The notes beneath the pieces were generated by a model that ran no database searches, was not told the origin of the DNA, and saw only the letters and a program-made list of their open reading frames with translations. Shown piece by piece: positions 43,482 through 55,158 of a DNA stretch of 64,000 nt (position 1 is the stretch's first letter; each line of letters starts with the position of its first letter). Location: NCBI GenBank assembly GCA_965220265.1, contig CBDCPM010000001.1, positions 30,803 to 94,802 on the forward strand. The letters are read 5' to 3'. The stretch comes from Dehalococcoidia bacterium (lineage in GTDB: Bacteria > Chloroflexota > Dehalococcoidia > Lucifugimonadales > UBA3495). Both the position numbers and the translations under genes were made by a program.

Positions 43482-45257
43482 ATGAACCACGACACCGCGG
43501 GCGTTGGGCCCGCCATTCTTGACCGGCACCCGGGGCTGGACGAGGGCCAGCGGGAGCTCATCGGGCGCTTGGAAGGCCCGACTTTGGGCATCGCCGGTCC
43601 CGGCTCGGGCAAGACCCTGGCGGTGGCGCTCCGGGGCGCCAACATCCTGCTGCAGGGCAAGGCCAGGCCCGAGGAGCTGGTGCTGTGCACCTACTCGCGG
43701 GCTGCGGCACGGGAGCTTCGCCAGCGTTTCATCAGGCTGACCAGCGCCGCCGGCTGCACAGGAGACCTGACCAAGGTGCGCATCGGCACCATCCACGGCC
43801 TGTGTGGCCGGATCCTGCGCTCCCACGCTCACCGCGCCGGTCTCCGGTCTGACTTCAAGGTGCTCAACGAGGACGAGCAGTGGCATCTCCTGATGCAGCA
43901 CTACGACGATGTATTCGGTTCCGACCTGCACGTTCTGGAGGGGGAGGGCTGGCGCTGGAAAGAGCCGCATCTGGTGATCCGGCACGGCTGCAAATATTTC
44001 GAGCGGATCTGCGACGAGCTCATCGCCCCTGATGAACTGATCGATTCCGGCGACCCATTCCACGCCGCCCTGGGCCGGTGCTATCTCCGCTACCGGGACC
44101 TGCTCCTCGATGAGGGGCGGGCGGACTTCGATCACCTGCAGCGGTGGGCCGCGGAGCTCCTGGAGGACGACCGCATCGCGGACCCCATCGCAGACGGCAC
44201 CAGGTATCTGATCTGCGACGAGTACCAGGACACGAGCGCCGTCCAGGAGCGCCTGCTGCTGCGGCTGTCCCGCAGCCACGGCAACATCTGCGTGGTGGGG
44301 GATGACGACCAGGCAATCTACCGTTTCCGCGGCGCCAGCGTGAGGAGCCTCCTGGAGTTTCCCGACCGCTTCGCCAACTGCCACACCGTGGAGCTGGGCG
44401 TCAACTACCGCAGCCATCCGGACATCGTGCGCTTTTACGACGGGTGGATGGCCACCGCCGCCGACTGGTCCAGTCCCGATGCGGGCGGTCGGCCCTTCCG
44501 CTACCCCAAGTCCATCACGCCCCACGACACCGGCGCGCATCGGGAGTATCCGGCGGTCATAGCCGTGGAGGGCCGGAGCGCCGGGAACGAGCGGAGACAG
44601 CTGGTGGAGTTGGTGGAGTTCCTGAAGGGCCGCGGGGTCATCGCCCGGTACGACCAGGTGGCGTTGCTGCTGCACTCGGTGCAAGGAGCCTCGGCCGTCG
44701 GCTACCTGGACGCCCTGGAAGGCGCGGGGATAGCGGTGAACCGCGCGCCTTCCGGAACCGGGAGACGCCGACGCGCCGGTTCCCGCCGGGGTCTCACCGT
44801 CACCACCATCCACCAGGCCAAGGGCCGGGAATGGGACGTGGTGATCGTGGGCTCACTGAACTTCGACAACCCCGACGTGGATCCGGTGGGCCGGGAGCTC
44901 GCGCCCTACGTGCGGAGGCCCGCCTTCGAGCCGGCCGACCGCATCGCGGAGTTCGACCACGCCCGCCAGCACTACGTGGCCTTCTCCCGGCCGCGGAGTC
45001 TGCTGGTGCTGACTGCCAGCGGCCGTGTGCATCCTCGTTTTGAAGACGCCTGGGAGCGCCTGCCCCGCTGGGACCGGATGGACCGCCGGGCGCTGGCCCG
45101 CCAGCGGTTTCGGCCGCCGGAGTCATCCGTTGATGAGGAGCGTGCCCAGAGACCGGTGCGGGTCATCCCATACCTGAGGCGGCTGGATGTGTGGCTTGGA
45201 CGCGCTGCTGCTGCAACCGGTGCGATGCCGCAGAGGCGGAAAGACCGCCGCTCGTAG
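43482..45257 (+). CDS. UvrD/Rep-type SF1 helicase (short form, 591 aa)
   Basis: Motif I is IAGPGSGKTLA. It also contains ICDEYQDTS, VVGDDDQAIYRFRGA, VNYRSHPDIV and TIHQAKGREWDVVIV. The ATG follows AGGAGaacagcaac. Confidence 0.9.
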   Translation: MNHDTAGVGPAILDRHPGLDEGQRELIGRLEGPTLGIAGPGSGKTLAVALRGANILLQGKARPEELVLCTYSRAAARELRQRFIRLTSAAGCTGDLTKVRIGTIHGLCGRILRSHAHRAGLRSDFKVLNEDEQWHLLMQHYDDVFGSDLHVLEGEGWRWKEPHLVIRHGCKYFERICDELIAPDELIDSGDPFHAALGRCYLRYRDLLLDEGRADFDHLQRWAAELLEDDRIADPIADGTRYLICDEYQDTSAVQERLLLRLSRSHGNICVVGDDDQAIYRFRGASVRSLLEFPDRFANCHTVELGVNYRSHPDIVRFYDGWMATAADWSSPDAGGRPFRYPKSITPHDTGAHREYPAVIAVEGRSAGNERRQLVELVEFLKGRGVIARYDQVALLLHSVQGASAVGYLDALEGAGIAVNRAPSGTGRRRRAGSRRGLTVTTIHQAKGREWDVVIVGSLNFDNPDVDPVGRELAPYVRRPAFEPADRIAEFDHARQHYVAFSRPRSLLVLTASGRVHPRFEDAWERLPRWDRMDRRALARQRFRPPESSVDEERAQRPVRVIPYLRRLDVWLGRAAAATGAMPQRRKDRRS

Positions 45258-45332
45258 TCCTGACGGCCAATGACGACCTGGACGGCGACGAGAACGTCGC
45301 CGCGACCCTGCTGCAAGGAGGTGAACAACATC

Positions 45333-45455
45333 ATGCACACTGAGAACGGCGTCACTGCTAGGGCGAGGGCTCCGCCTGTCCGATATGCGTGGTGCGCCGC
45401 ATGGACCCGTCGGCACACCGGCGGTCCGGTTGCATCCCCAACCTCACCTGGGTAG
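45333..45455 (+). CDS. Candidate 40-codon small ORF or leader peptide
   Basis: The ATG at 45333 lies 8 nt after AAGGAGGTGA, a near-perfect SD, in an otherwise gene-free gap. The peptide is MHTENGVTARARAPPVRYAWCAAWTRRHTGGPVASPTSPG. A terminator-like hairpin follows. The composition is not clearly protein-like. Confidence 0.3.
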   Translation: MHTENGVTARARAPPVRYAWCAAWTRRHTGGPVASPTSPG

Positions 45456-45502
45456 AGCCATGCCCAGAAACAATCCACCGCGCTCGTATGTTCCACTGAC
45501 GT

Positions 45503-45540
45503 GGGCCGGCCTGGGACACATCCCGGGTCGGCCCGTTTTC
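45503..45540 (+). terminator. Intrinsic terminator or attenuator hairpin
   Basis: GGGCCGGCCTGGG (45503-45515) pairs with CCCGGGTCGGCCC (45522-45534) over 13 bp, including two G-U wobbles. The loop is ACACAT, and GTTTTC follows. Confidence 0.5.
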
Positions 45541-45596
45541 ATGTCTGAGCCACCGGCGCGATCGACAACACCAAATCTCAAAAGAGGTAACAACAG

Positions 45597-46301
45597 ATGA
45601 AAGTCGTAAACAACGACGACGACAACAACCGACCCCTGACCCTGGCCGAGATGGAGGCCTGCCAGCAGTTCGAGGCAAGCAACCGGGAGGGCCAGGCCCT
45701 GTTCCACCCCCAGGTGGCCGCCGGCCAGCCCGTCCCGAACTGCGTCGCCCTCTTCGAGGAGGTCGGCCGCTTCGCCGTAACCATCCCGAAAGGCCGGTGC
45801 TCCGTAGAGGACGGGCAGTGGTTCCGCCACGATGCCGACGGCGCTGTGGCGGCGGTCGACAACCCCCTGGAGGGCGCCTGGCAGGCCGCCAAGGCGGTCC
45901 GCGCCGAGATCAAGCGCGAGCTGGACCTCAACACCTACGTCATCGCGGTGTTGTGGTTCCCCGACATGGAGGAGGACGAGGACATCCTGGAAGAAGCCGA
46001 AGGGCGCAGCGTACACCTGATCTTCGGCGAGGTTGACCTGGTCCAGCGGCTGGTCAGTCTACCCAAGGACGATGAGCTGCAGACGCACCTCAGCCGCCGG
46101 TACATCAAGCAGGAGGTGGCGGCGTTGAGTCGCCCCTCTGCCGAGGTGTCGCCGGAACCGGCCGAGGACTCCTCACCCGCAGTGAGGGGGCGGGTCGGCG
46201 CGTTGGTCCTGGAGCGGGTGGAAACCGTAAACGTCTACATCACCATCGTGTATGGCGATATGGGAGACGATCCCCCGCTGATCACCGTGCGGAGCCAGTA
46301 G
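45597..46301 (+). CDS. NERD-like paralogue 3 (nuclease motif degenerate)
   Basis: 234 aa, with the ATG after AGAGGtaacaacag. GRFAVTIPKGRCSVEDGQWFRHDADGAVAAVDNPLEGAWQAAKAV...YVIAVLWFPDMEEDEDILEEAEGRSVHLIF is colinear with paralogues 1 and 2. Confidence 0.55.
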   Translation: MKVVNNDDDNNRPLTLAEMEACQQFEASNREGQALFHPQVAAGQPVPNCVALFEEVGRFAVTIPKGRCSVEDGQWFRHDADGAVAAVDNPLEGAWQAAKAVRAEIKRELDLNTYVIAVLWFPDMEEDEDILEEAEGRSVHLIFGEVDLVQRLVSLPKDDELQTHLSRRYIKQEVAALSRPSAEVSPEPAEDSSPAVRGRVGALVLERVETVNVYITIVYGDMGDDPPLITVRSQ

Positions 46302-47115: not shown

Positions 47116-47504
47116 GGATCAGAGGTTCGCTCGAGTCTGGTGGGCGATGGCATCCTCAACCTCGCCACTCCATGTGGGGCGACGTTCCGCCAGGCGATTT
47201 CCTGGGTGGGCCCAAAGGGCCGTTCCAGCTCGTGCAGGGGCACTATCCCGGTTCATGCGCTATCAGCTCAATGAATTCGTAAACCAGCGATTTCCCGTCG
47301 TGCAGGGCGCTGGTGGACAGCAGCCCGCCCGCGGCGGATGACTCCTCGCATCTCCATCTGGGGAACTTCCCGGTACGCCATCGCAACACTGTCAGTTTCG
47401 AAGTGCAGCAATGGTCGCCCATCTGGCTCCCAAGGTGGTCAAATATCCTGAGAATCTTCGCGGTTCCCCCGGTCAAAGTCGGCAAAAAATGGCTTTTAGG
47501 CCCC

Positions 47505-47717
47505 TTACCAAGGCCATGGCCTCATCAATCCCCATTCGGTGACTCTGCCGGCATTGTCCCGCCAGGCCGGTGTGACATAGATGCCCACCAACCACCGTTG
47601 GATTGCGTATCGGATGCGGGTGGGAGCCACGGCCAACTCTTCCGCCAACTGGGGCACCGACCGTGGGCCATGGCTCAGGCAGCGCCCGATTTGATGGCAC
47701 AGGTGGTCATACCCCAT
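47505..47717 (-). CDS. Small HTH protein coupled to the recombinase (possible excision or regulatory factor)
   Basis: 70 aa. GPRSVPQLAEELAVAPTRIRYAIQRW looks like a helix-turn-helix. Its ATG overlaps the recombinase stop (TGATG at 47715-47719). Confidence 0.4.
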   Translation of the reverse strand: MGYDHLCHQIGRCLSHGPRSVPQLAEELAVAPTRIRYAIQRWLVGIYVTPAWRDNAGRVTEWGLMRPWPW

Positions 47718-48742
47718 CAGGCCTTCTTCTTCCGCTTGCGGGAATACAACTGGGCGACGACGCTGCGGCCGGCGAACTGTGCCCCGACGTAACGGGCCAC
47801 CGTCTGGGATGACTTCCAGCGGCCCACGGCCTGGAGCTGGGGCATGGTGGCGCCGGCTTCCGCCAGGTCGACGGCCATGCCGACCCGGCAGCTGTGGCCG
47901 CTGTAGCCTTCCCCCAGACCGGCGGCCACCGCGGCGGCGGCGATGCGTTCGCTGATGGTGGCCGGCTTCAGGTCGAACACCTTCTCTTCGCCCTCGTCCT
48001 TTTCCTCCCCGGGCAGCAGCTGTTGCCTGGGTCGGATCCGGTCCACCGCCTTCATGGTGGGCGGTCCCAGGTAGAGCACCACGCCCTCGCCCTCCTGGTC
48101 GGTCTTGGACCAGGGTATGGTCAACCGGCCGGACCCGTCCGGCTCGGTGACGATGTGTTTCCAGAGGATTTCGGCGGCCTCGGAGCGGCGCAGCAGGGCG
48201 TCGCGCATCACCGAGATCAGGGCGATGTCCACCAGGCCGCGGCGTCGGGCGTTGCGGGAATGCTCCATTCCGCGCTCGGTCTTTCGTGGGTTGCGGGCGG
48301 TTTCCCGGATCTTCTCGAGGTCTTCACCGGTGAGGGGTTTGGCGCGTTTTTCGCGTTGGCCCGCTTCCTTGGCGCGGTTGACGAACCCCTTGATGACCAT
48401 GGCCACCCTATCTTTGCAGGGGCTGTCGTATTTCGCGGACCGGTGCTCGGCGGCGATGCTGGAGGCGTAGCCTCTGAGGGTGTTGGGTTTCTTGCCGACT
48501 AAACCCTGTGTGAAGATGAACACGGCCACGGTTTCCGGATCGGCCGGCAGGGATTGAAATCCCCTTGCCTGGCACCACTCTTCGAAGGTGTTCCATTGCT
48601 GGCCCTGCTGATAGCGGGTGGTTTTAGCCCGGCTTTCCTCGGCCACCTCGCTGACCAGTTTCTCCATCAGCTCCCGCACGTCCGGTAGGTTGGCGGGGGA
48701 TGGGGGAGCCTGGGGCTCTGGGGACAGTACGGGTGTGGTCAT
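47717..48742 (-). CDS. Tyrosine site-specific recombinase (Cre/phage-integrase family)
   Basis: 341 aa. It has an N-terminal SAM-like core-binding region (TTRYQQGQQWNTFEEWCQARGF), then LLRRSEAAEILWKHI, GYSGHSCRVGMAVDLAEAG (HxxR) and GRWKSSQTVARYVG (catalytic Tyr). Confidence 0.9.
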   Translation of the reverse strand: MTTPVLSPEPQAPPSPANLPDVRELMEKLVSEVAEESRAKTTRYQQGQQWNTFEEWCQARGFQSLPADPETVAVFIFTQGLVGKKPNTLRGYASSIAAEHRSAKYDSPCKDRVAMVIKGFVNRAKEAGQREKRAKPLTGEDLEKIRETARNPRKTERGMEHSRNARRRGLVDIALISVMRDALLRRSEAAEILWKHIVTEPDGSGRLTIPWSKTDQEGEGVVLYLGPPTMKAVDRIRPRQQLLPGEEKDEGEEKVFDLKPATISERIAAAAVAAGLGEGYSGHSCRVGMAVDLAEAGATMPQLQAVGRWKSSQTVARYVGAQFAGRSVVAQLYSRKRKKKA

Positions 48743-48929
48743 TTTGTTTTCCTTCGGGATTAATAACTAAAACTTACATTATGATTCTTGACTATACATA
48801 ATCTTTCTGATAAAATCAAGATTAGTATAAAACTAAGTATGATCAGCAGTTAAAAACTAATAAATTTAGTGTTTCCTGGTGCAGGGCTGCCGCTGGACCC
48901 CATTGTCCCAGGTTCGCCATTGTCCCAGG
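48743..48929. promoter_or_regulatory. AT-rich (about 25% GC) divergent control region with repeated motifs
   Basis: It contains TTGACT-N17-TAAAAT. Three AAAACTAA-like repeats are present. AATCTT and AAGATT form an inverted pair. CCATTGTCCCAGG occurs twice (48900-48912 and 48917-48929). The region lies between the recombinase and the MTase-like gene. Confidence 0.5.
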
Positions 48930-49014
48930 ACACCGCATGATTTGGCTCAAACGTTCCCCACTTTCAGGGGCGCCTGGGATAACGCAATGTCCCGCCATGG
49001 GGTATAATGGGATA

Positions 49015-49980
49015 ATGCCGCTACCACGAAACCTCACCGACGACCAGGTGCGCTACGTCCGCACCTCGCTGAAATCCTCGGTCCAACTGGCCGACGAGCT
49101 GCCGGTGGACCGGAAGGCGATCGACCGGATCAGGCACCGGCAAACCTACAAGGATGTCCCCGATGCGCCGCCCACCGCCGATCCTCCCGCCGCCCTGCGT
49201 CGCAACGACTACGTGTTGGGCGACGCCCTCGAGCTGATGGCTGATCTGCCCGACGGATATGCGGAGACCGTGGTTGCCATGCCGCCCTTGTTCCGGCCGC
49301 CGCACGCGAGCCAGTCCCAGGTACGGCAGGCCAGGTCAAGCCATGTCGATCGCCAGAAGTCGATCATCCGGGAGGGCCGGCGCGTCGCCGGGCCCAACGG
49401 GGTGCTGCTCTACGTGCATCGTTACGACCTGACGGCTGACCTGCTGGACGTCGGTCCCGGCGGAATTCCGGAGTTCTCCCCGGAGCAGGTCATCGTCTGG
49501 GATACCTTGGCCAAAGAGGACCCGCCCTCTGCTTCCACGCGCCGGATCCCGGGGCAGCATCGCGCCATCTATGTCTTCGCCGGGGACCGCTGGCGCCTCC
49601 CGCTGGATATCAGGGACCAGGTCGGAGATTGGGGAGACCTGTGGCCCTTCAGAGCGCAACTCCGGGACGGTGACTTGCGGGAATTCCCTGAGGAACTGGC
49701 CGATCGCCTCATCGCCATGGGTCGCGGGCGGGTGCTGGACCCCTTCGCCGAGCTGGGCGCCATTGGACTGGCGGCGGCCAGGAAGAACCGGGAGTGGACC
49801 CTCTTCGGCAAGAGCGCGGTGGACCAGCACACGTTTCGTCGAAACCTGCAGGCGTTCTACCAGGAACGCGCTTTTCCAACAAAGACGGTGGTGCAATCCG
49901 TGCGTCCGCCTCCGCAGAGCAGGTCCACCGGCAAGGGGCGATCGCGGCCACCTGGGCCGGACCAGCGGATCTTGCTCTGA
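49015..49980 (+). CDS. N4/N6 DNA-methyltransferase-like protein with degenerate catalytic and SAM motifs and an N-terminal HTH
   Basis: The layout matches N6_N4_Mtase: LGDALELMADLPDGYAETVVAMPPLF (in place of D/SPPY/F) and EFPEELADRLIAMGRGRVLDPFAELGAIGLAAARKNREW (in place of DPF.GSGTT). TATAAT at 49003-49008 ends 6 nt before the ATG at 49015, so the mRNA may be leaderless. Alternative starts are 48937 and 48997. Confidence 0.6.
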   Translation: MPLPRNLTDDQVRYVRTSLKSSVQLADELPVDRKAIDRIRHRQTYKDVPDAPPTADPPAALRRNDYVLGDALELMADLPDGYAETVVAMPPLFRPPHASQSQVRQARSSHVDRQKSIIREGRRVAGPNGVLLYVHRYDLTADLLDVGPGGIPEFSPEQVIVWDTLAKEDPPSASTRRIPGQHRAIYVFAGDRWRLPLDIRDQVGDWGDLWPFRAQLRDGDLREFPEELADRLIAMGRGRVLDPFAELGAIGLAAARKNREWTLFGKSAVDQHTFRRNLQAFYQERAFPTKTVVQSVRPPPQSRSTGKGRSRPPGPDQRILL

Positions 49981-50110
49981 TGCCCCGCCTTCCGTGCAGT
50001 TGTCCTTCCGGCACGGCCGGAAGCCGGATCTTGGTAACCCTCCCCCATGGGATCTTGAGGCTTTTGACGCAGTAGGTACTAACTAACTATGATGGTTTCG
50101 GGAGGCCATC

Positions 50111-50515
50111 ATGATGATTGACCGAGAACAGAGATATCGGGACATGGCGATGCGGGGCAAGTACCGGAGACTGTACGCCCACCTCTGCGGCCTGGGCTCC
50201 CGGGAGTGGAACGCTTCCTTCACCGAGGTGGAGGCGGTGCTGGGCTTCCAGCTTCCTGTCTCGGCCCGTATGCACCGGCCCTGGTGGGCCAACCAGAGCC
50301 GAGGGAACGGGCACAGCCACGCCCTGGCCTGGACCACGGCCGGATGGGAGACCGCCCAGGTCGACATGGAAGCCGAGACGCTGCTGTTCCGGCGTAGGGA
50401 GCCCGAGCCCATTGGAAACCTTGATCTCGACGAGTTATGGCCCGTCCACTCTGCCGGCGCGTGGCCGTCAGACCTCAGCCTCCGCCGGGAGGACGTCTAC
50501 CACGAGAGGATTTAA
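50111..50515 (+). CDS. Putative antitoxin of VapC: conserved LP.SAR...WWAN module plus a short VapB-like tail
   Basis: 134 aa, with the ATG after GGAGGccatc. YRRLYAHLCGL...FTEVEAVLGFQLPVSARMHRPWWANQ...HALAWTTAGWE is a widespread module of unknown function. The tail ends LSLRREDVYHERI, and vapC starts 8 nt downstream. Confidence 0.55.
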   Translation: MMIDREQRYRDMAMRGKYRRLYAHLCGLGSREWNASFTEVEAVLGFQLPVSARMHRPWWANQSRGNGHSHALAWTTAGWETAQVDMEAETLLFRRREPEPIGNLDLDELWPVHSAGAWPSDLSLRREDVYHERI

Positions 50516-50523
50516 CTCGGGGG

Positions 50524-50946
50524 ATGTTCGTCGATACCAACATCCTGGTGAACGCCCGCATCCGCGAGGCGCCGCACCACGAAATCGCCAGGGAAGGTTT
50601 GGAAAGCGCCCTTCGCGGTCCCGAACCGCTGTGCATCAGCCGCCAGGTCATGCGCGAGTATCTGGCGGTCGTCACCCGTCCCCAGGCCTGGCCGGTGCCC
50701 ATCACCCGCGGGGAGGCCCTCGACGACATCGGGCGCCTGAGCAGAGCTTTCGAAGTGCTTGAGGATGGCCCGCGGGTGACTGACATGCTGGTGGCCCTGT
50801 GCCGGGACGTCCAGGTGGGAGGCAGGCAGGTCCACGACGCCAACATCGTGGCCACCATGCTGGCCCACGGCGAGCGCCGGCTGCTCACCTTCAACACCGC
50901 GGACTTCCGGCGCTACGGCGGCCGACTTGAACTGGTAACCGGCTGA
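50524..50946 (+). CDS. vapC: PIN-domain toxin VapC
   Basis: MFVDTNILVNA...QVHDANIVATMLAHGERRLLTFNTADFRRY carries the canonical PIN acidic residues and layout. Confidence 0.9.
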   Translation: MFVDTNILVNARIREAPHHEIAREGLESALRGPEPLCISRQVMREYLAVVTRPQAWPVPITRGEALDDIGRLSRAFEVLEDGPRVTDMLVALCRDVQVGGRQVHDANIVATMLAHGERRLLTFNTADFRRYGGRLELVTG

Positions 50947-51121
50947 CTCCCGCCCGGTTCCGTGTCCGGGTCCGCCGACCACGGCAGCCGGCTTGCCGCG
51001 CTGCCGAATTCAGTTTTGTGTTCCCCACGCTCGTATCGAGCGGCTGCAGCCGGCGCTTCCGGCAACCCGGCGTGCGCTGCCCCCTGGCATAATCACATCC
51101 GATGACCATGGAGGTCATGCC

Positions 51122-51595
51122 ATGAAATGGAAAGATCTCATCGACCTGGCGCGGGAGATGGCGACAACTCCGCCGTCTGACCGTCTCCACCAGGCCAAAC
51201 TTCGTCTCGCGGTCGCCACCGTCTATTACGCCATGTACCACGCCCTGGCCCGCAGCAACGCGGACCTGCTGATCGGTCCGTCCGAAACGGAGGGCAGCGC
51301 GCCGGAGTGGAACCGCGTCCACATGGCCCTGGGCGGGGACTCGGCGCATGAGCTGCTGCAGGCCGACTTCTCCCGCCATCCCGAGGCGATCCGGCGGTTC
51401 GTCGATGAGTTCCTCGCCGCGCATGATCAGCGGCTGCTGGCCGAGGAGGACCCGGCGGCCACCTTCACCACCGACCAGGCCCGGGACTGGGTTGATCGAG
51501 CCGAGACGGCCATCGCCGAGTTCCTTACCATAGGGCCCGAACAACGCCGAGCCTTTGCCCTTGAGTTGCTGCCGGTCCAACCATTGGAGAAATAG
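51122..51595 (+). CDS. HEPN-like all-helical protein
   Basis: 157 aa from the ATG at 51122, after GGAGGtcatgcc. AVATVYYAMYHALARSNADLL resembles the HEPN helix (sRaYYA.fHa..all). The usual R..aDY motif is not intact (QRLLAEED). Confidence 0.45.
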   Translation: MKWKDLIDLAREMATTPPSDRLHQAKLRLAVATVYYAMYHALARSNADLLIGPSETEGSAPEWNRVHMALGGDSAHELLQADFSRHPEAIRRFVDEFLAAHDQRLLAEEDPAATFTTDQARDWVDRAETAIAEFLTIGPEQRRAFALELLPVQPLEK

Positions 51596-51616
51596 TTCCC
51601 ATCGGCAGGGCTGTGG

Positions 51617-54256
51617 TCATACGGTGAGGTCCACCGGCGCCCACCCATCGCCGCGGTAGCGCCAGGCATGGCGTGGTCCCTGGCCGAGGATGACCACAGC
51701 CCCGCAGCCGGAGCCCAGTATCCGCTGGGCCACGTCCATGGGGAACTCGCTCACCGGCTTGACCTCCGCGTAGGCTTCGAGGTCGCTCAGCACTATCCGG
51801 AAATCGGGGATCCAGCCGCTGAACCGCGCCGGCTCGTACTCCCAGGAGATGCCCTGCCGGTCGAAGTACGCCGCCCACCGGGCCTCCAGCTGACTGCGGA
51901 AGGTGACGCCGCCGTACTCGGTGATGACGGGAGTCTGCTCGGCACCCAGGGTGTGGGGAGCTACGTCGGTGGCCCACCGGTGCAGCGCGGCGGCGGTGCC
52001 CTCCCTCAGCAATCGGTCCCTTTCAGAACGCTGTCCCGGCTGGCGGGTGATCTCGAGGAGCGCCTGGGTGTAGCGGCCTAGGTTGTCGGCCACGGCCTTT
52101 GACAGTCCCAACCCGCCGCCCACCTTGTCCCAGATGACGATGGCGCGGCGCACCTCGCTGCTGCGGCCGTCGCGCACCACCTGGACGTTCTGGTGCGTGG
52201 TGCGGACGTCGGCGGGGTGGACCGACTCCCGGCTGCACATGACGGTCCGCAGGGCTCGGGCCACGTCGCGCCTGGTGCTGGCGTCGTCGAACCAGTCCTC
52301 CCAGATGATGATCAGCGTCGCGGTGGTGCGCAGGTTGGTCACCACCTCGGGGATGCCCTCAACGTCGTAGTGAACGTCTCGCCACTCGACGTCGCCCCCC
52401 TCCCGGATGGAGCAACCGACGATCCGTTCCCAGGTCACCGCCTGGGCGTGGGTGCCGTACTCCAGGTGGCCCAGGTCTGACACCCGGGGCTCCTGCAACG
52501 TGACCGTGGCGCCGCTGCGCGTGATGGGCCTGGTCTCCCGGGGCGGAGCGTGGCGCGCCGTGATCACCGTCTCGCCGCCCGACTCCCGCCAGGCCAGGAT
52601 GGAGTAGCTCTGCTTGGCGTGGAAGTAGGTGGCCAGCGGATAGGCGTCTCGCGCCGCCTCCCGGCGGGTCACCTCGCTGGTCAATAGTTCGGTTTCGCCG
52701 CCCGGCATCAGTTGCACGATGCGCGCTCGCCCGTCGGCAGCGTCCCGGATATCGTTGCGGTGAGGTTGCTGCGGGTCCCCAGTCTGGAACTCCGGCGCGT
52801 AGTGGTCACCGCGGGCGATCTCACGCAGCGTCTGGGGCAGCTGCTCCGGCCAGGCGTCGGTGGGCGACGGGATGGCGCGCTCCATCCCGTTGAGATCGGT
52901 TTCCTTGGCCAGGCAGCGGCCGTGGGTGTTCCTGATGTTGGGATTGGACGGATACAGCCGGGCCGGCTCCACCGGCTGGCCCCAGTAGGTCTCGAGGCTG
53001 TCCTCGTGGAACTGGAAGGCGTGGCGCGGCGCCACGATGATGAACCGGCCTGGACCGGTGCGTCCCACCCGTCCGGCCCGCTGTTTCACCTGCCCCACCG
53101 AGTGGGGCAGCCCCAGGTTGAAGCCCACCTGCAGGTCGGGGATGTCCATGCCCATCTCCATGGCGCTGGTGCTGGCGATGCCGCGAATGTCGCCGATCCT
53201 GAGCGCCTCCTCGATGCGCTCCCGGCGCATCAGGCCGGAGCGGTAGGCCATGGCGTCCCGGGACTCCACGATGATGGCGTCCTCGGTGATGCTGCGGGCG
53301 GCCTCGATACCGGCGGCGGCGCGCTCCGCCAGTTGCCGGTCGTCGATGAAGGCGATGTACGACCGGTCGGGGTCCTCGCTGATCACCTCCCGCACCGCCG
53401 CCTGCAGGTCCCGCCAGCCCTCGTCGTGGGGCTCACGGCCGACGACGTGCTGCACGGTGAGCTCGGCGCGGGGGCTGCCGTCGTACCGGTCGTCCACCAC
53501 CTGGAAGGGGAGGCCCGTGAGCGTTTCGAGGTGCTGGGCCGGGTTGTGGATGGTGGCGCTGGCCGCGATGATACGCAGGGGCTCGAACTGCGCCATCAGT
53601 TCCCGGCGCTTCTGCTGCAGGCGGTGCAGCAGGTAGAGGCAGTGGGTGCCCAGCGCGCCGTCGTAGGTGTGGGCCTCGTCCAGGATGAGAAACGCCAGGT
53701 TGGAAATGAAGCGCCTGACGTTGTACTGGGTGTTCTGCACTTCTCTCAGGTCGTGGCGCAGTGGCCGTCTGCCGTAGAGGGGCTCGGAGTAGGCCATCAG
53801 CCACTGCTGGATCACGTCGGGGGTCATCAATGCCAGGCGGGTACGCTGCAGGATCTGCCGCCGCTCGGTGAGGTCGCGCACGTCGCCGTCGATGCGGTTG
53901 ATGGCGTCGGGATCCAGGCCGGCGGCCTCCGCCATGCCCTGCCAGCGAATGACCTGGTCCCGGGCCAGGGCCTTGATGGGGTAGACGGCGATGGCCGTGG
54001 CGTTGGGGTGGTTTGCAAGGTGATCCAGGGTGGGCGCCTGGAAAACCAGGGACTTGCCGCTGGCGGTGCCGGTGCTGATCACCAGGTTGTGCTCCTGGCC
54101 CACGAGCTCCAAACCCATGGCCTGGTGCAGGTACAGCTGGCCATCGCCCGTCTGGGCCTGCACCGCGGGCCAGACGGGGCTGGCGGTCAGCCAGGCAGGG
54201 GCATCGCCGTGGCGGGCCTCCTGGCCGGGGATGGTGATCTCGTCGTGAATCTCCAC
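51617..54256 (-). CDS. DEAD/DEAH-box SF2 helicase (YprA/Lhr-like core) fused to a C-terminal PD-(D/E)xK nuclease module
   Basis: 879 aa. The helicase motifs are STGTASGKSL (I), FLILDEAHTY (II), AASATI (III) and VKQRAGRVGRTG (VI). The last about 100 aa, FRSQLEARWAAYFDRQGISWEYEPARFSGWIPDFRIVLSDLEAYAEVKP, match the small F.S.lEa....l......ye......Y.PDF......EVK endonuclease fold. A GTG start lies 6 nt after the RelE stop. Confidence 0.8.
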   Translation of the reverse strand: MEIHDEITIPGQEARHGDAPAWLTASPVWPAVQAQTGDGQLYLHQAMGLELVGQEHNLVISTGTASGKSLVFQAPTLDHLANHPNATAIAVYPIKALARDQVIRWQGMAEAAGLDPDAINRIDGDVRDLTERRQILQRTRLALMTPDVIQQWLMAYSEPLYGRRPLRHDLREVQNTQYNVRRFISNLAFLILDEAHTYDGALGTHCLYLLHRLQQKRRELMAQFEPLRIIAASATIHNPAQHLETLTGLPFQVVDDRYDGSPRAELTVQHVVGREPHDEGWRDLQAAVREVISEDPDRSYIAFIDDRQLAERAAAGIEAARSITEDAIIVESRDAMAYRSGLMRRERIEEALRIGDIRGIASTSAMEMGMDIPDLQVGFNLGLPHSVGQVKQRAGRVGRTGPGRFIIVAPRHAFQFHEDSLETYWGQPVEPARLYPSNPNIRNTHGRCLAKETDLNGMERAIPSPTDAWPEQLPQTLREIARGDHYAPEFQTGDPQQPHRNDIRDAADGRARIVQLMPGGETELLTSEVTRREAARDAYPLATYFHAKQSYSILAWRESGGETVITARHAPPRETRPITRSGATVTLQEPRVSDLGHLEYGTHAQAVTWERIVGCSIREGGDVEWRDVHYDVEGIPEVVTNLRTTATLIIIWEDWFDDASTRRDVARALRTVMCSRESVHPADVRTTHQNVQVVRDGRSSEVRRAIVIWDKVGGGLGLSKAVADNLGRYTQALLEITRQPGQRSERDRLLREGTAAALHRWATDVAPHTLGAEQTPVITEYGGVTFRSQLEARWAAYFDRQGISWEYEPARFSGWIPDFRIVLSDLEAYAEVKPVSEFPMDVAQRILGSGCGAVVILGQGPRHAWRYRGDGWAPVDLTV

Positions 54257-54262
54257 GGTGTA

Positions 54263-54523
54263 CTACCTGCGACGGTACGATTCGCGTCGGTGAGCGACGC
54301 GCACCACCAGGATGATCAGCTCGTCGTCCAGCAGTTCGTACAGGATGCGGTGGTCGCCCACCCGCTGGCGGCGCAACCCCCGCAACCCGCCCTTCAGCGG
54401 GCTGCCGGCCAGCGGGTGTTCCCCCAGTGCGTCGATGGCCGCGATGACCCGCTCCCTGGCCTCTCGGGGCAGTTGCGCCAACTCCCGTTGGGCGCTGCCC
54501 CTAATCCGGATCGAGTAGCTCAC
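54263..54523 (-). CDS. RelE/ParE-family toxin
   Basis: 86 aa. LRRQRVGDHRILYELLDDELIILVVRVAHRRESY is the RelE/ParE C-terminal signature. Confidence 0.85.
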   Translation of the reverse strand: MSYSIRIRGSAQRELAQLPREARERVIAAIDALGEHPLAGSPLKGGLRGLRRQRVGDHRILYELLDDELIILVVRVAHRRESYRRR

Positions 54524-54722
54524 GCCTGACCTCGTCCCAGTCCAGGACCGGATCGGAGGGATCCCGCAGCCGCTCCAGGGCCACGGTCAGGTCGTCGAAG
54601 TCCTCCAGGTAGCTCTCCAGGGCCTGCCGGATCACCTCGGCGCGACTGCGGTTGAGAGCCGCTGCCGCCGTGTCCAAGGCCTCGGCCACTTCATCGGGCA
54701 CTCGGGCGGTGATCTGTGCCAT
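54501..54722 (-). CDS. RHH-type antitoxin
   Basis: The ATG at 54722 follows GAGG. MAQITARVPDEVAEALDTAAAALNRSRAEVIRQALESYL is a ribbon-helix-helix. It overlaps the toxin start by 23 nt. Confidence 0.8.
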   Translation of the reverse strand: MAQITARVPDEVAEALDTAAAALNRSRAEVIRQALESYLEDFDDLTVALERLRDPSDPVLDWDEVRRELLDPD

Positions 54723-54812
54723 TGCTGGAAACCTCGAGTAGGCGTGATTACCGTTGATGTCACTGACATTGTACGCAATCACGATAGCCGAAGCCACCAG
54801 GCGTCGTCAACG

Positions 54813-55127
54813 TCACTCAAACTCCGTGGGCTTCGTTGATGCGGCGCAGCACATCGGTCCACAGGCCTTCAGATCACCGGCGCGAGTGTCAAAGGCGTGG
54901 CCGGCCGGGATCCGTTCGCCGCACCAGCCGCAGATCCGCTGGAGCAGGGCAGCGCGCAACGCCTCCGGAAACGACGCCGGATCCAGCGCAGACCGGTGGT
55001 TGCGGCAGTACCAGTCGGCCAGGTCGTCGGCGATGGCCGGAATCGACTGCTCCACTATGTCCAGAGTGAGACCATCCTGCCATTCGGCGAAACGGCGCAT
55101 CCGGTCATCGGTCATTGCATTCTCCAT
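54813..55127 (-). CDS. Hypothetical protein with a Cys-rich C-terminus
   Basis: 104-aa ORF. The C-terminus reads CGWCGERIP...CGPMCC. I recognised no family. Confidence 0.45.
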   Translation of the reverse strand: MENAMTDDRMRRFAEWQDGLTLDIVEQSIPAIADDLADWYCRNHRSALDPASFPEALRAALLQRICGWCGERIPAGHAFDTRAGDLKACGPMCCAASTKPTEFE

Positions 55128-55158
55128 GCTCTTTCCGTGAGCGCGGCCTCGCGCGGAC

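What the first reader, a model, noticed from the sequence alone, without database searches (positions are those of the whole stretch)
51617..54797. RHH/RelE toxin-antitoxin pair in one operon with an SF2 helicase / PD-(D/E)xK nuclease fusion
Seen in the sequence:
- Three same-strand genes lie with almost no spacing. The antitoxin overlaps the toxin by 23 nt, and the helicase GTG start is 6 nt after the RelE stop.
- The 879-aa helicase has a complete DEAD/DEAH core (TGTASGKS, DEAH, SAT, QRAGRVGR).
- It then has about 350 aa of unknown sequence without the four-Cys cluster expected for a YprA/MrfA DUF1998 module.
- It ends in a small endonuclease module (FRSQLEARW...IPDF...AEVKP).
- A HEPN-like gene converges on its 3' end.

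Inference: this may be a TA-stabilised or TA-regulated helicase-nuclease effector, reminiscent of defence helicases but with an architecture I cannot assign to a named system.
Basis: partly seen in the sequence, partly recalled or inferred. Interest (0 to 1): 0.6.

Follow-up and report, generated by a model that had tools for sequence, protein, structure and literature searches.

The report
Toxin-antitoxin cassette docked on helicase-nuclease gene
A mobile, multi-copy gene of uncultured marine SAR202 bacteria encodes a DNA-unwinding motor fused to a DNA-cutting domain, most likely an anti-virus or anti-plasmid weapon, and a self-contained toxin-antitoxin cassette with its own switchable promoter has been inserted directly in front of it, so it probably controls the gene's expression but is not required for it.

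Summary
RHH antitoxin, RelE/ParE toxin and an 879-aa helicase lie on the minus strand, with a 23-nt overlap and then a 6-nt gap.

The "unknown" middle of the helicase is the OB-CON-DUF1998 canopy of the YprA/MrfA family (Foldseek to MrfA 6ZNP, E 9e-43, TM 0.74). It has only one Cys in place of the four-Cys zinc cluster. The C-terminal 100 aa fold as a PD-(D/E)xK nuclease of the Hjc/Bax1/phage-resolvase type, with E-D-ExK intact.

The gene is accessory:
- It is present in 18 of 49 species of one genus and in none of 32 sister genera.
- It occurs in 1-4 copies per genome, and many copies are decayed.
- Intact copies are under purifying selection (dN/dS 0.15).

The gene directly upstream varies: a Cys-rich 104-aa ORF, RHH-RelE, or Phd-VapC. 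The RHH-RelE unit (54262-54812) is an autonomous cassette with a conserved promoter and palindromic operator. It is absent from the paralogue on contig C3. Elsewhere it survives after the helicase was replaced by an MmeI-type enzyme.

Relatives at 44-53% identity are the last gene of PDC-M33-like candidate defence operons.

Verdict: a new variant of YprA-family helicase-nuclease defence effectors. TA coupling is likely transcriptional but facultative. No RNA data were available.

The parts
54723..54812 (-). Promoter/operator of the TA cassette. It holds -35 TTGACG (54810-54805), -10 TATCGT (54786-54781), the palindrome ATGTCAGTGACAT (54769-54757), and outer inverted arms GTGATT (54782-54777) and AATCAC (54749-54744).
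   Evidence: The promoter scan found its only hit of the region here. An alignment of 14 cassette copies conserves TTGAC(G/A), TATGGT/TATCGT and ATGTC-N3-GACAT. The outer arms co-vary (GTGATT/AATCAC versus GTTGAG/CTCAAC), and L025 carries a perfect 41-bp palindrome.
54501..54722 (-). RHH (CopG/RelB-like) antitoxin, 73 aa from the conserved ATG. The ORF is open back to the GTG at 54797.
   Evidence: Pfam RHH_1 at 4e-11 and NCBIfam RelB-like antitoxin at 3e-12. The start was chosen from the conservation of ATGGC(A/G)CAGATCAC and of the upstream promoter.
54263..54523 (-). RelE/ParE-superfamily toxin, 86 aa. Its GTG start overlaps the antitoxin stop by 23 nt.
   Evidence: Pfam ParE_toxin at 4.4e-14; TIGR02385 RelE_StbE at 27.9 bits, exactly at its cut-off. 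It is one of only 3 PF05016 genes in the genome.
52952..54256 (-). Helicase-nuclease gene, aa 1-435: N-terminal beta-strand (NTR) plus the RecA1/RecA2 SF2 motor (Walker A K68, DEAH 193-196, SAT 233, motif VI 392-399).
   Evidence: Pfam DEAD at 1.5e-20 and Helicase_C at 1.7e-10. phmmer to YprA/MrfA 6ZNP at 1.8e-38. AF2 model with pLDDT 87. The motif residues are invariant in alignment A1.
51947..52951 (-). Helicase-nuclease gene, aa 436-770: helical linker plus the OB-CON-DUF1998 (MZB) canopy, with no four-Cys zinc cluster.
   Evidence: Foldseek of the full model against MrfA 6ZNP_A gives E 9.4e-43, TMt 0.74 and 806 aligned columns. TIGR03817 matches aa 9-732 at 3e-59. The Pfam MZB hit is weak, at 9e-4. 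There is 1 Cys in this region, and 0-2 in all 25 clade members aligned.
51617..51925 (-). Helicase-nuclease gene, aa 778-879 plus the stop codon: PD-(D/E)xK nuclease domain with catalytic E791, D817, E831 and K833.
   Evidence: The AF2 domain model has pLDDT 88.7. Foldseek PDB hits are TT1808, Hjc, the Bax1 nuclease, DrdV and VRR-NUC (prob 0.97-0.99). The best BFVD hit is a phage 'restriction endonuclease domain' protein at E 1.4e-6. phrog_21138 matches at 5e-17. It is 41-51% identical to phage proteins, some annotated as Holliday junction resolvase. The motif residues are invariant in A2 and nearly so in A3.
54813..55127 (-). orf104: a small Cys-rich protein (C-x2-C ... C-x3-CC). It is the commonest dedicated upstream partner of the helicase. 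In this copy the TA cassette sits between the two genes.
   Evidence: It is found only in helicase-bearing genomes (14 of 81). At least 14 of 18 full hits lie directly upstream of a helicase copy or remnant. In contig C3 its stop codon is 16 nt from the helicase ATG. It has no hit in any profile library.
51122..51595 (+). It ends 21 nt from the helicase stop codon.
   Evidence: It has high GC3 and is conserved at this position in about 10 loci. Its only profile hit is a weak phrog_5176 match at E 0.015.

Best explanation
What it is:
- The 879-aa gene encodes an accessory, horizontally mobile member of the YprA/MrfA family of SF2 DNA helicases.
- It has the complete MrfA architecture: N-terminal strand, RecA1, RecA2, helical linker and OB-CON-DUF1998 canopy.
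- The canopy has lost its zinc cluster.
- A phage-type PD-(D/E)xK nuclease (Hjc/Bax1-like) with intact catalytic residues is fused to the C-terminus.

How it most likely works (inferred by analogy with MrfA and with the YprA-family effectors DruE and ARMADA ArmC):
1. The motor loads on single-stranded or forked DNA of an invading phage or plasmid.
2. It translocates 3'->5' using ATP.
3. The tethered nuclease cuts the DNA it is threading.
This makes it a one-protein helicase-coupled nuclease effector of defence islands or inter-element conflict.

Population behaviour in this SAR202 genus:
- The gene has lost the three partner genes (PDC-M33A/B/C-like) that precede its 44-53% identical relatives.
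- It lives as a multi-copy module that recombines often and decays often.
- It never has promoter space of its own. It is always butted against an upstream same-strand gene: orf104, RelE or VapC.

The RHH-RelE pair:
- It is an autonomous type II toxin-antitoxin cassette (54262-54812).
- It has its own conserved promoter and palindromic operator.
- It was inserted between orf104 and the helicase start codon.
- Because the helicase starts 6 nt after the RelE stop with no terminator, it is probably read from the antitoxin-controlled promoter (inferred, not shown).
- The two modules are separable. The helicase is maintained without the cassette, and the cassette is maintained without the helicase.
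For: Architecture:
- Pfam, NCBIfam and PDB sequence hits.
- Full-length AF2 model with pLDDT 87 that superposes on the whole of MrfA 6ZNP (E 9e-43, TMt 0.74).
- Nuclease fold and motifs.

Accessory and mobile, yet functional:
- Four copies in the window's genome, two of them pseudogenes.
- Present in 18/49 species of the genus and 0/32 other genera of the order, with many fragments.
- 42 loci in SAR202/Dehalococcoidia MAGs, often several per genome, surrounded by IS21, IS630, IS5 and IS701 transposase genes.
- dN/dS of 0.15 over 21 intact copies, with all three regions constrained.

Defence context:
- Relatives P0211, P0214 and P0216 directly follow PDC-M33A/B and DUF6339+SspD-like (M33C) genes.
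- P0231 follows a DndB-like gene. P0227 sits beside an SF1-helicase/DUF559 gene, PemK and IS110.
- In three genomes an MmeI-type restriction-modification gene has replaced the helicase behind the same TA cassette.
- The window itself is a defence-rich region, with PIN, DUF4143-ATPase and NERD/UvrD modules (earlier notes).

TA cassette:
- The paralogue on C3 lacks exactly 54256-54816.
- The promoter and operator are conserved with co-varying arms in 14 copies.
- Two of the genome's 3 RelE genes abut helicase copies.
- Among RelE copies at least 85% identical, 9 are linked to a helicase, and the 3 'unlinked' ones still carry the first 33 nt of the helicase ORF.
- All three upstream types end 6-45 nt from the start codon.

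Precedent: C-terminal nuclease fusions and loss of the 4-Cys cluster are both documented in defence-type YprA helicases (Bell et al. 2025, bioRxiv 10.1101/2025.09.15.676423). DruE is an ATP-driven helicase-coupled nuclease (bioRxiv 10.64898/2026.05.13.724313).
Against:
- The protein matches no defence-system HMM over its full length. The best PADLOC hit, SngC, covers only the motor.
- By sequence it is nearest to compact 'repair-like' YprA proteins: TIGR03817 at 201 bits, versus 34-60 bits for DrmA, DpdJ and DruE models.
- The two closest outgroup homologues sit next to MutL (P0098, 70% identity) and a DEDDh exonuclease (P0105, 64%).
- PDC-M33 is itself only a candidate system, and the window's genome lacks M33A/B.
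- A self/non-self discrimination mechanism is not identified.
- The RelE junction is identical in all copies, so it reflects one insertion event that was then spread by recombination, not repeated recruitment.
Confidence: 0.6

Rival explanations
1. DNA-repair helicase. This would be an MrfA-like crosslink or adduct repair enzyme in which a fused PD-(D/E)xK endonuclease replaces the separate MrfB exonuclease. Under this reading the TA genes are irrelevant neighbours.
For: - The best structural and sequence match is the repair helicase MrfA.
- It has the compact size and lacks the BrxA-like and zinc-module insertions typical of ARMADA and Druantia helicases.
- The closest curated family is TIGR03817.
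- Homologues P0098 and P0105 lie next to MutL and a DnaQ-like DEDDh exonuclease.
Against: - It is patchy: 18/49 species of one genus and none in 32 sister genera.
- It is multi-copy, with frequent pseudogenes and remnants.
- There is no conserved synteny. It is embedded among IS elements, TA pairs and restriction genes.
- It was replaced by an MmeI-type gene in three genomes.
- Three relatives sit in PDC-M33-like operons.
- The P0105 locus is a one-directional array of small unknown genes that looks like a mobile element.
Confidence: 0.12
2. Mobile-element housekeeping with incidental TA hitch-hiking. The helicase-nuclease would serve replication, recombination or resolution of an integrative or plasmid element: the int-MTase-DUF7662/PIN-helicase block, or a plasmid-like contig C1. 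The TA cassette would only stabilise that element, and its position in front of the helicase would have no regulatory meaning.
For: - A tyrosine recombinase and an MTase-like gene travel with the helicase in the window, in C3 and in L003.
- The nuclease domain's closest relatives are stand-alone phage proteins, some annotated as Holliday junction resolvases.
- The TA cassette persists intact beside decayed or deleted helicases, which is the behaviour of an addiction module.
- The RelE junction has a single origin.
- An earlier unverified note reports a plasmid-like iteron replicon in the window.
Against: - Most copies have no integrase, MTase or replicon nearby. Homology breaks sharply at the helicase start and stop.
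- Two further, unrelated upstream modules (orf104, Phd-VapC) also abut the start codon on the same strand with no promoter space. This argues that read-through from upstream is the rule.
- The MrfA-type canopy helicase is not a known replicative or resolvase-associated helicase.
Confidence: 0.2

Closest known systems
MrfA/YprA of Bacillus subtilis (PDB 6ZNP; Roske et al. 2021, PMC7797055)
   Same: - It shares the whole domain order: N-terminal strand, RecA1, RecA2, helical linker and OB-CON-DUF1998 canopy.
- Foldseek gives E 9e-43, TMt 0.74 and 806 aligned columns.
- phmmer gives 1.8e-38 over the motor.
   Different: - It has no four-Cys zinc site (1 Cys).
- It carries an extra C-terminal PD-(D/E)xK nuclease instead of a separate MrfB DEDDh exonuclease partner.
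- It is accessory, multi-copy and patchy rather than a single housekeeping gene.
Defence-type YprA helicase-nuclease effectors: DruE (Druantia III) and ArmC (ARMADA), as described in Bell et al. 2025 (bioRxiv 10.1101/2025.09.15.676423) and bioRxiv 10.64898/2026.05.13.724313
   Same: - It is a YprA-family motor with a nuclease fused at the C-terminus.
- It resides in defence islands or mobile elements.
- Loss of the DUF1998 zinc cluster has a precedent in Dpd.
- A RelE-like domain also occurs in ARMADA type II (ArmD).
   Different: - It is half the size or less, at 879 aa.
- It has no BrxA-like insertion, no beta-barrel or MarR zinc modules, and no BrxHII, PglX or DruH partners.
- The nuclease is Hjc/Bax1/phage-resolvase-like, not Vsr-type or PLD.
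- PADLOC DruE, DrmA and DpdJ models hit only the helicase motifs.
PDC-M33 (PADLOC candidate defence system; M33A, M33B, M33C)
   Same: Homologues of the helicase-nuclease at 44-53% identity (P0211, P0214, P0216) are the gene directly after M33A/M33B/M33C-like genes. The M33C-like gene carries DUF6339 plus an SspD/PAPS-reductase-like domain.
   Different: - The window's genome has no M33A/B, and only an unlinked PAPS-reductase-like hit.
- PADLOC's M33 models do not include a helicase.
- PDC-M33 is an untested candidate. No paper in the library mentions it.
RelBE-type type II toxin-antitoxin operons, including the three-gene relBEF arrangement of E. coli (the relBEF example is from my own knowledge)
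   Same: - An RHH antitoxin lies upstream of, and overlaps, a RelE/ParE-fold toxin.
- A palindromic operator overlaps the promoter.
- A third gene follows without a gap.
   Different: - Here the third gene is a 2.6-kb helicase-nuclease.
- The cassette is demonstrably an insertion between two older partners, orf104 and the helicase.
- Toxicity and autoregulation are untested.
XPB-Bax1 helicase-nuclease pair of archaea (PDB 6P4O/6P66)
   Same: - An SF2 DNA helicase works with a PD-(D/E)xK nuclease of similar fold.
- The Bax1 nuclease domain is among the best structural hits, and is the best (weak) PDB profile hit, with the E/D/ExK motifs aligned.
   Different: - The helicase family is different: XPB rather than YprA.
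- The proteins are separate rather than fused.
- The role is repair.
- Sequence similarity is not significant (E 0.34).

Membership tests
YprA/MrfA (DUF1998) helicase family | SF2 RecA1/RecA2 motor with DEAH box and motif VI | tested here: met
   Pfam DEAD and Helicase_C hits. K68, D193, E194, H196, R393 and R396 are invariant in A1. phmmer to 6ZNP gives 1.8e-38.
YprA/MrfA (DUF1998) helicase family | N-terminal beta-strand (NTR) and OB-CON-DUF1998 canopy after RecA2 | tested here: met
   The AF2 model has strand 3-9 and a beta-rich stretch at 510-710. Foldseek aligns 806 columns to the whole of MrfA with TMt 0.74. TIGR03817 covers aa 9-732. The Pfam MZB hit is only sub-threshold, at 18.8-20.3 bits against a cut-off of 24.2.
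YprA/MrfA (DUF1998) helicase family | Four-cysteine zinc cluster in DUF1998 | tested here: not met
   There is one Cys (C674) in aa 655-745, and 0-2 Cys in all 25 aligned clade members. The same loss is reported for Dpd helicases, so it does not exclude family membership.
MrfAB repair pair | Adjacent or fused MrfB-type DEDDh exonuclease; stable single-copy chromosomal gene | tested here: not met
   There is no exonuclease gene in the window neighbourhood. The gene is multi-copy, patchy and often decayed. Only the 64%-identical homologue P0105 follows a DEDDh exonuclease.
DISARM | Split DrmA helicase and DrmB (DUF1998), a DrmC PLD nuclease, and a DrmMI/MII methyltransferase with DrmD/E | tested here: not met
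   The helicase and DUF1998 are fused, and there are no PLD or SNF2 genes. DrmA models hit only the helicase motifs, at 29-34 bits. The nearby N6_N4_Mtase-like gene scores below the Pfam cut-off and is present in only a few loci.
ARMADA / Druantia YprA lineage | BrxA-like domain after RecA1, beta-barrel and MarR zinc modules inside RecA2, and size above about 1400 aa | tested here: not met
   The model runs from RecA1 (ending about aa 255) straight into RecA2 (about aa 265-430) with no inserted domains. The protein is 879 aa with 5 Cys in total. The features are as defined.
PDC-M33 candidate system | M33A, M33B and M33C genes in an operon | tested here: not met
   tblastn of the L056 and L057 M33A/B/C proteins finds no A or B in the window's genome or in loci L001-L052. 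Only an unlinked hit to the SspD-like half of M33C was found. The feature is met for relatives P0211, P0214 and P0216.
PD-(D/E)xK nuclease superfamily | alpha-beta-beta-beta-alpha-beta core with E ... D ... (D/E)xK catalytic residues | tested here: met
   The model has pLDDT 88.7 with elements H25-36, E40-43, E55-59, E62-68 and H76-83. Foldseek hits are Hjc, Bax1, TT1808, DrdV and VRR-NUC. E791, D817, E831 and K833 are invariant in A2. Enzymatic activity cannot be tested with these tools.
Type II RelBE/ParDE toxin-antitoxin | Small antitoxin gene upstream of and overlapping a RelE/ParE-fold toxin, with an autoregulatory operator | tested here: met
   Pfam RHH_1 and ParE_toxin hits, with TIGR02385 exactly at its cut-off. 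The two genes overlap by 23 nt. A conserved palindrome with co-varying arms overlaps the promoter. Toxicity and neutralisation cannot be tested here.
HEPN (for the convergent gene 51122-51595) | HEPN profile match and Rx4-6H motif | tested here: not met
   There is no hit in Pfam (E up to 1), NCBIfam, PADLOC or PDB. I saw no Rx4-6H motif on reading the sequence.

The most novel reading that the evidence does not exclude
Toxin-antitoxin cassettes act as interchangeable expression gates for an orphaned helicase-nuclease effector. At least two unrelated TA families directly abut its start codon on the same strand: RHH-RelE at 6 nt and Phd-VapC at 45 nt. A third family, HigB/HTH, lies further upstream in the same array. 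The gene never has a promoter of its own. Under this reading the nuclease would be produced mainly when the antitoxin is lost and the TA operator is derepressed, for example after phage-induced shut-off of host expression. An addiction module would thus serve as the infection sensor of a DNA-degrading defence.
Probability: 0.2. Interest if true: 0.7.

Novelty: new variant of a known kind. Interest (0 to 1): 0.45.

Why it matters
YprA-family helicases are the shared engine of DISARM, Dpd, Druantia and ARMADA.

This clade shows a minimal version of that engine:
- an MrfA-sized motor,
- no zinc site,
- a phage-resolvase-type nuclease in place of Vsr or PLD.

In some lineages it is the last gene of an uncharacterised four-gene candidate system (PDC-M33-like). 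In SAR202 bacteria it stands as an orphan that swaps upstream modules. That makes it a compact, tractable model for how a helicase-coupled nuclease is targeted and restrained.

It also offers a natural experiment: the same effector with and without a TA cassette. This can test whether type II TA promoters are used to gate defence genes.

Finally, it documents very active cassette-level recombination in the defence islands of an abundant but uncultured marine lineage.

Tried and rejected
1. **DISARM-like pairing with the neighbouring MTase-like gene (48937-49980).** Rejected. The MTase match is below the Pfam cut-off, the gene is present in only a few loci, and there are no DrmB, DrmC or SNF2 genes.

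2. **Integron-like or site-specific 'gene cassette' explanation for the sharp homology breaks at the helicase start and stop.** I found no conserved motif or repeat at the upstream or downstream junctions. The 3' breakpoints differ and sometimes fall inside the last codons. I attribute the pattern to recombination among paralogous copies and IS activity.

3. **Single gain of the TA state on the helicase tree.** The tree shows the RelE, orf104 and VapC states scattered: 9 changes for RelE, at least 6 of them forced. Yet the junction sequence is identical in all copies. This means one insertion shuffled by recombination or gene conversion, not repeated insertion.

4. **M33 partners hidden in the window's genome.** None were found.

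5. **HEPN identity of the convergent gene.** No support was found.

6. **Close homologues on sequenced plasmids or phages.** None were found for the full protein (at most 30% identity on plasmids). Only the nuclease domain matches phage genes.

7. **Literature on PDC-M33 or DUF6339.** The library holds none.

Full report
**Observation.**

On the minus strand lie three ORFs: 54501-54797 (RHH), 54263-54523 (RelE/ParE) and 51617-54256 (879 aa).

- The RelE GTG at 54523 overlaps the RHH stop by 23 nt.
- The helicase GTG at 54256 lies 6 nt after the RelE TAG.
- The protein has only five Cys.
- Profile searches confirm RHH_1 (4e-11), ParE_toxin (4e-14; RelE_StbE exactly at its cut-off) and DEAD plus Helicase_C.
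- The antitoxin probably starts at the conserved ATG at 54722, because 54723-54812 is a conserved promoter/operator.

**Anatomy of the large protein.**

The '350 aa of unknown sequence' is the YprA/MrfA canopy.

- TIGR03817 aligns to aa 9-732 (3e-59, far below its equivalog cut-off).
- Pfam MZB (DUF1998) hits weakly at aa 667-736.
- The best solved relative by sequence is B. subtilis YprA/MrfA.
- A full-length AlphaFold2 model (pLDDT 87, pTM 0.79) matches MrfA 6ZNP over 806 columns (E 9e-43, TM 0.74 on the target).
- The model includes the N-terminal strand that is a family hallmark (Bell et al. 2025).
- The four-Cys zinc site is absent. There is one Cys in the region, and 0-2 in all 25 clade members down to 30% identity. 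The same loss is described for Dpd helicases.
- There are no BrxA-like, beta-barrel or MarR insertions, so this is not an ARMADA/Druantia-type helicase.

**Nuclease domain.**

- Residues 778-879, modelled with 34 homologues (pLDDT 88.7), give a restriction-endonuclease-like fold.
- PDB hits are TT1808, archaeal Hjc resolvases, the Bax1 nuclease domain, DrdV and VRR-NUC (prob 0.97-0.99, TM 0.4-0.5).
- The best viral hit is a phage 'restriction endonuclease domain' protein (E 1.4e-6, TM 0.63).
- The domain hits phrog_21138 (5e-17).
- It is 41-51% identical to phage proteins, some annotated as Holliday junction resolvase.
- It has about 2,700 mostly stand-alone relatives of 180-200 aa.
- E791, D817, E831 and K833 are invariant in the fused clade. 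The exception is P0218, where they are replaced.

**Population behaviour.**

- The organism is a SAR202/Dehalococcoidia MAG (record titles).
- Its genome has four copies: this one, an intact 91% paralogue on contig C3, and two frameshifted copies on the chromosome.
- Among 81 related genomes, the gene occurs in 18 of 49 species of the same genus and in none of 32 other genera. It occurs in 1-4 copies with many fragments.
- Dozens of short 'proteins' in the databases are C-terminal remnants.
- Intact copies are nevertheless constrained: median dN/dS is 0.15 overall, with 0.13 for the motor, 0.12 for the canopy and 0.26 for the nuclease.
- This excludes a housekeeping repair gene with conserved synteny.

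**Neighbourhood mosaic.**

DNA homology between copies breaks sharply at the helicase start and stop. Directly upstream, always on the same strand, lies one of three modules:

| Upstream module | Approx. copies | Junction to helicase start |
|---|---|---|
| orf104 | 12 | TGA + 16 nt + ATG |
| RHH-RelE | 13 | TAG + 6 nt + GTG |
| Phd-VapC | 7 | TAG + about 45 nt + ATG |

- HigB(Gp49)/HTH pairs and an ASCH gene often lie further upstream.
- Transposase genes of several IS families surround the loci.
- orf104 is a Cys-rich 104-aa protein with no profile hit.
- orf104 occurs only in helicase-bearing genomes and almost always directly upstream of a helicase copy or remnant, so it is the older dedicated partner.

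**The TA cassette.**

- The C3 paralogue is collinear with the window from 47499 to 55146 but lacks exactly 54256-54816. The cassette is therefore an insertion between orf104 and the helicase.
- It carries its own conserved -35/-10 and an ATGTC-N3-GACAT palindrome.
- The palindrome is flanked by arms that co-vary between lineages. One copy is a perfect 41-bp palindrome. This is the signature of an RHH operator.
- The genome has only three PF05016 genes, and two of them abut helicase copies.
- Among RelE genes at least 85% identical in relatives, nine are helicase-linked.
- The three apparently free ones retain the first 33 nt of the helicase ORF. These are followed by an insertion and an MmeI-family restriction-modification gene.
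- On the helicase tree the RelE state is scattered, yet the junction is identical everywhere. The simplest reading is one insertion redistributed by recombination among copies.
- The modules are separable. Intact helicases exist without the cassette, and intact cassettes exist beside decayed or deleted helicases.

**Distant relatives.**

An exhaustive search found 16,748 relatives. Those that keep the nuclease tail include:

- P0211 (53%), P0214 (48%) and P0216 (44%). Each directly follows genes matching PADLOC PDC-M33A, M33B and M33C (DUF6339 plus an SspD/PAPS-reductase-like half).
- P0105 (64%), which follows a DnaQ-like exonuclease in a one-directional array of unknown genes.
- P0098 (70%), which follows a true MutL.

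Tail-less relatives at about 33% identity sit beside DndB-like, SF1-helicase/DUF559, PemK and IS genes.

The window's genome lacks M33A/B.

**Interpretation.**

The best-supported reading (0.6) is an orphaned, mobile YprA-family helicase-coupled nuclease of defence islands.

- It would act like MrfA as a 3'->5' ssDNA translocase, and like DruE/ArmC as a motor-driven nuclease on invading DNA (inferred).
- It is probably co-transcribed from whichever module lies upstream. In this copy that is an antitoxin-controlled promoter.

Rivals are a repair role (0.12) and a mobile-element maintenance role with purely incidental TA hitch-hiking (0.2).

The linkage is real and non-random, and regulation is plausible, but the TA pair is facultative and the architecture is assignable.

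An earlier agent's report on a homologous locus in another genome reached the same picture. I saw it only after my own analysis, and I re-derived each of its points here.

**Limits.**

- No transcript data were available.
- No formal placement in the published YprA phylogeny was made.
- All functional statements are inferences from homology and context.

Noticed in passing
L062 (G005:C1), L063 (G010:C3) and L064 (G039:C39), just after the RelE stop: The same RHH-RelE cassette is followed by only the first 33 nt of the helicase ORF. An AT-rich insertion with CAGGATT-like repeats comes next, and then a roughly 1000-aa MmeI-family type IIL restriction-modification gene. One defence gene has replaced another behind the same TA cassette.
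   Followed up: partly
window 54813-55127 (-): orf104 is a Cys-rich (CxxC...CxxxCC) 104-aa protein with no profile hit. It is found only in helicase-bearing genomes and almost always directly upstream of the helicase. It might supply in trans a zinc module that the Cys-less DUF1998 lacks, but this was not tested.
   Followed up: partly
window 47499-55146 versus G000:C3:80839-87956, and window 44004-45990 versus C3:73714-75677: Contigs C1 and C3 of the same assembly share a collinear block at 70-87% identity: NERD/UvrD module, integrase, MTase-like gene, DUF7662-PIN, unknown gene, helicase and orf104. They could be paralogous islands, plasmids, or co-assembled related strains. Assembly contamination is 5.4%.
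   Followed up: no
window 50111-50946 (+) and 51122-51595 (+): A DUF7662 gene overlapping a PIN (VapC-like) gene, plus the 157-aa unknown gene, travel together as a convergent module downstream of the helicase in about 8-10 loci.
   Followed up: partly
Loci L003, L004, L006, L017, L025 and others, upstream of the helicase: Same-strand arrays run ASCH-domain gene, HigB(Gp49)/HTH pair, Phd/VapC pair, orf104, (RHH/RelE), helicase. That places up to three different TA families in tandem in one array.
   Followed up: partly
Proteins P0226-P0255: The wider Cys-less YprA clade (about 860 aa, 30-37% identity) carries a different, beta-rich C-terminal domain of about 100 aa with a conserved W..W(N/Q)P.TG motif in place of the nuclease. 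Its fold and role are unknown.
   Followed up: no
L056 and L057 (and L061): The operon is PDC-M33A-like, M33B-like, then DUF6339 fused to an SspD/PAPS-reductase-like domain, then the helicase-nuclease. In L056 it lies next to T4SS-pilin-like genes. This could be a DNA-modification-based defence system with the helicase-nuclease as its effector.
   Followed up: partly
Protein P0218 (L058): This full-length homologue (39% identity) has its nuclease catalytic residues replaced (LAASW, and LVD in place of EVK). It appears to be an inactivated-nuclease variant.
   Followed up: no
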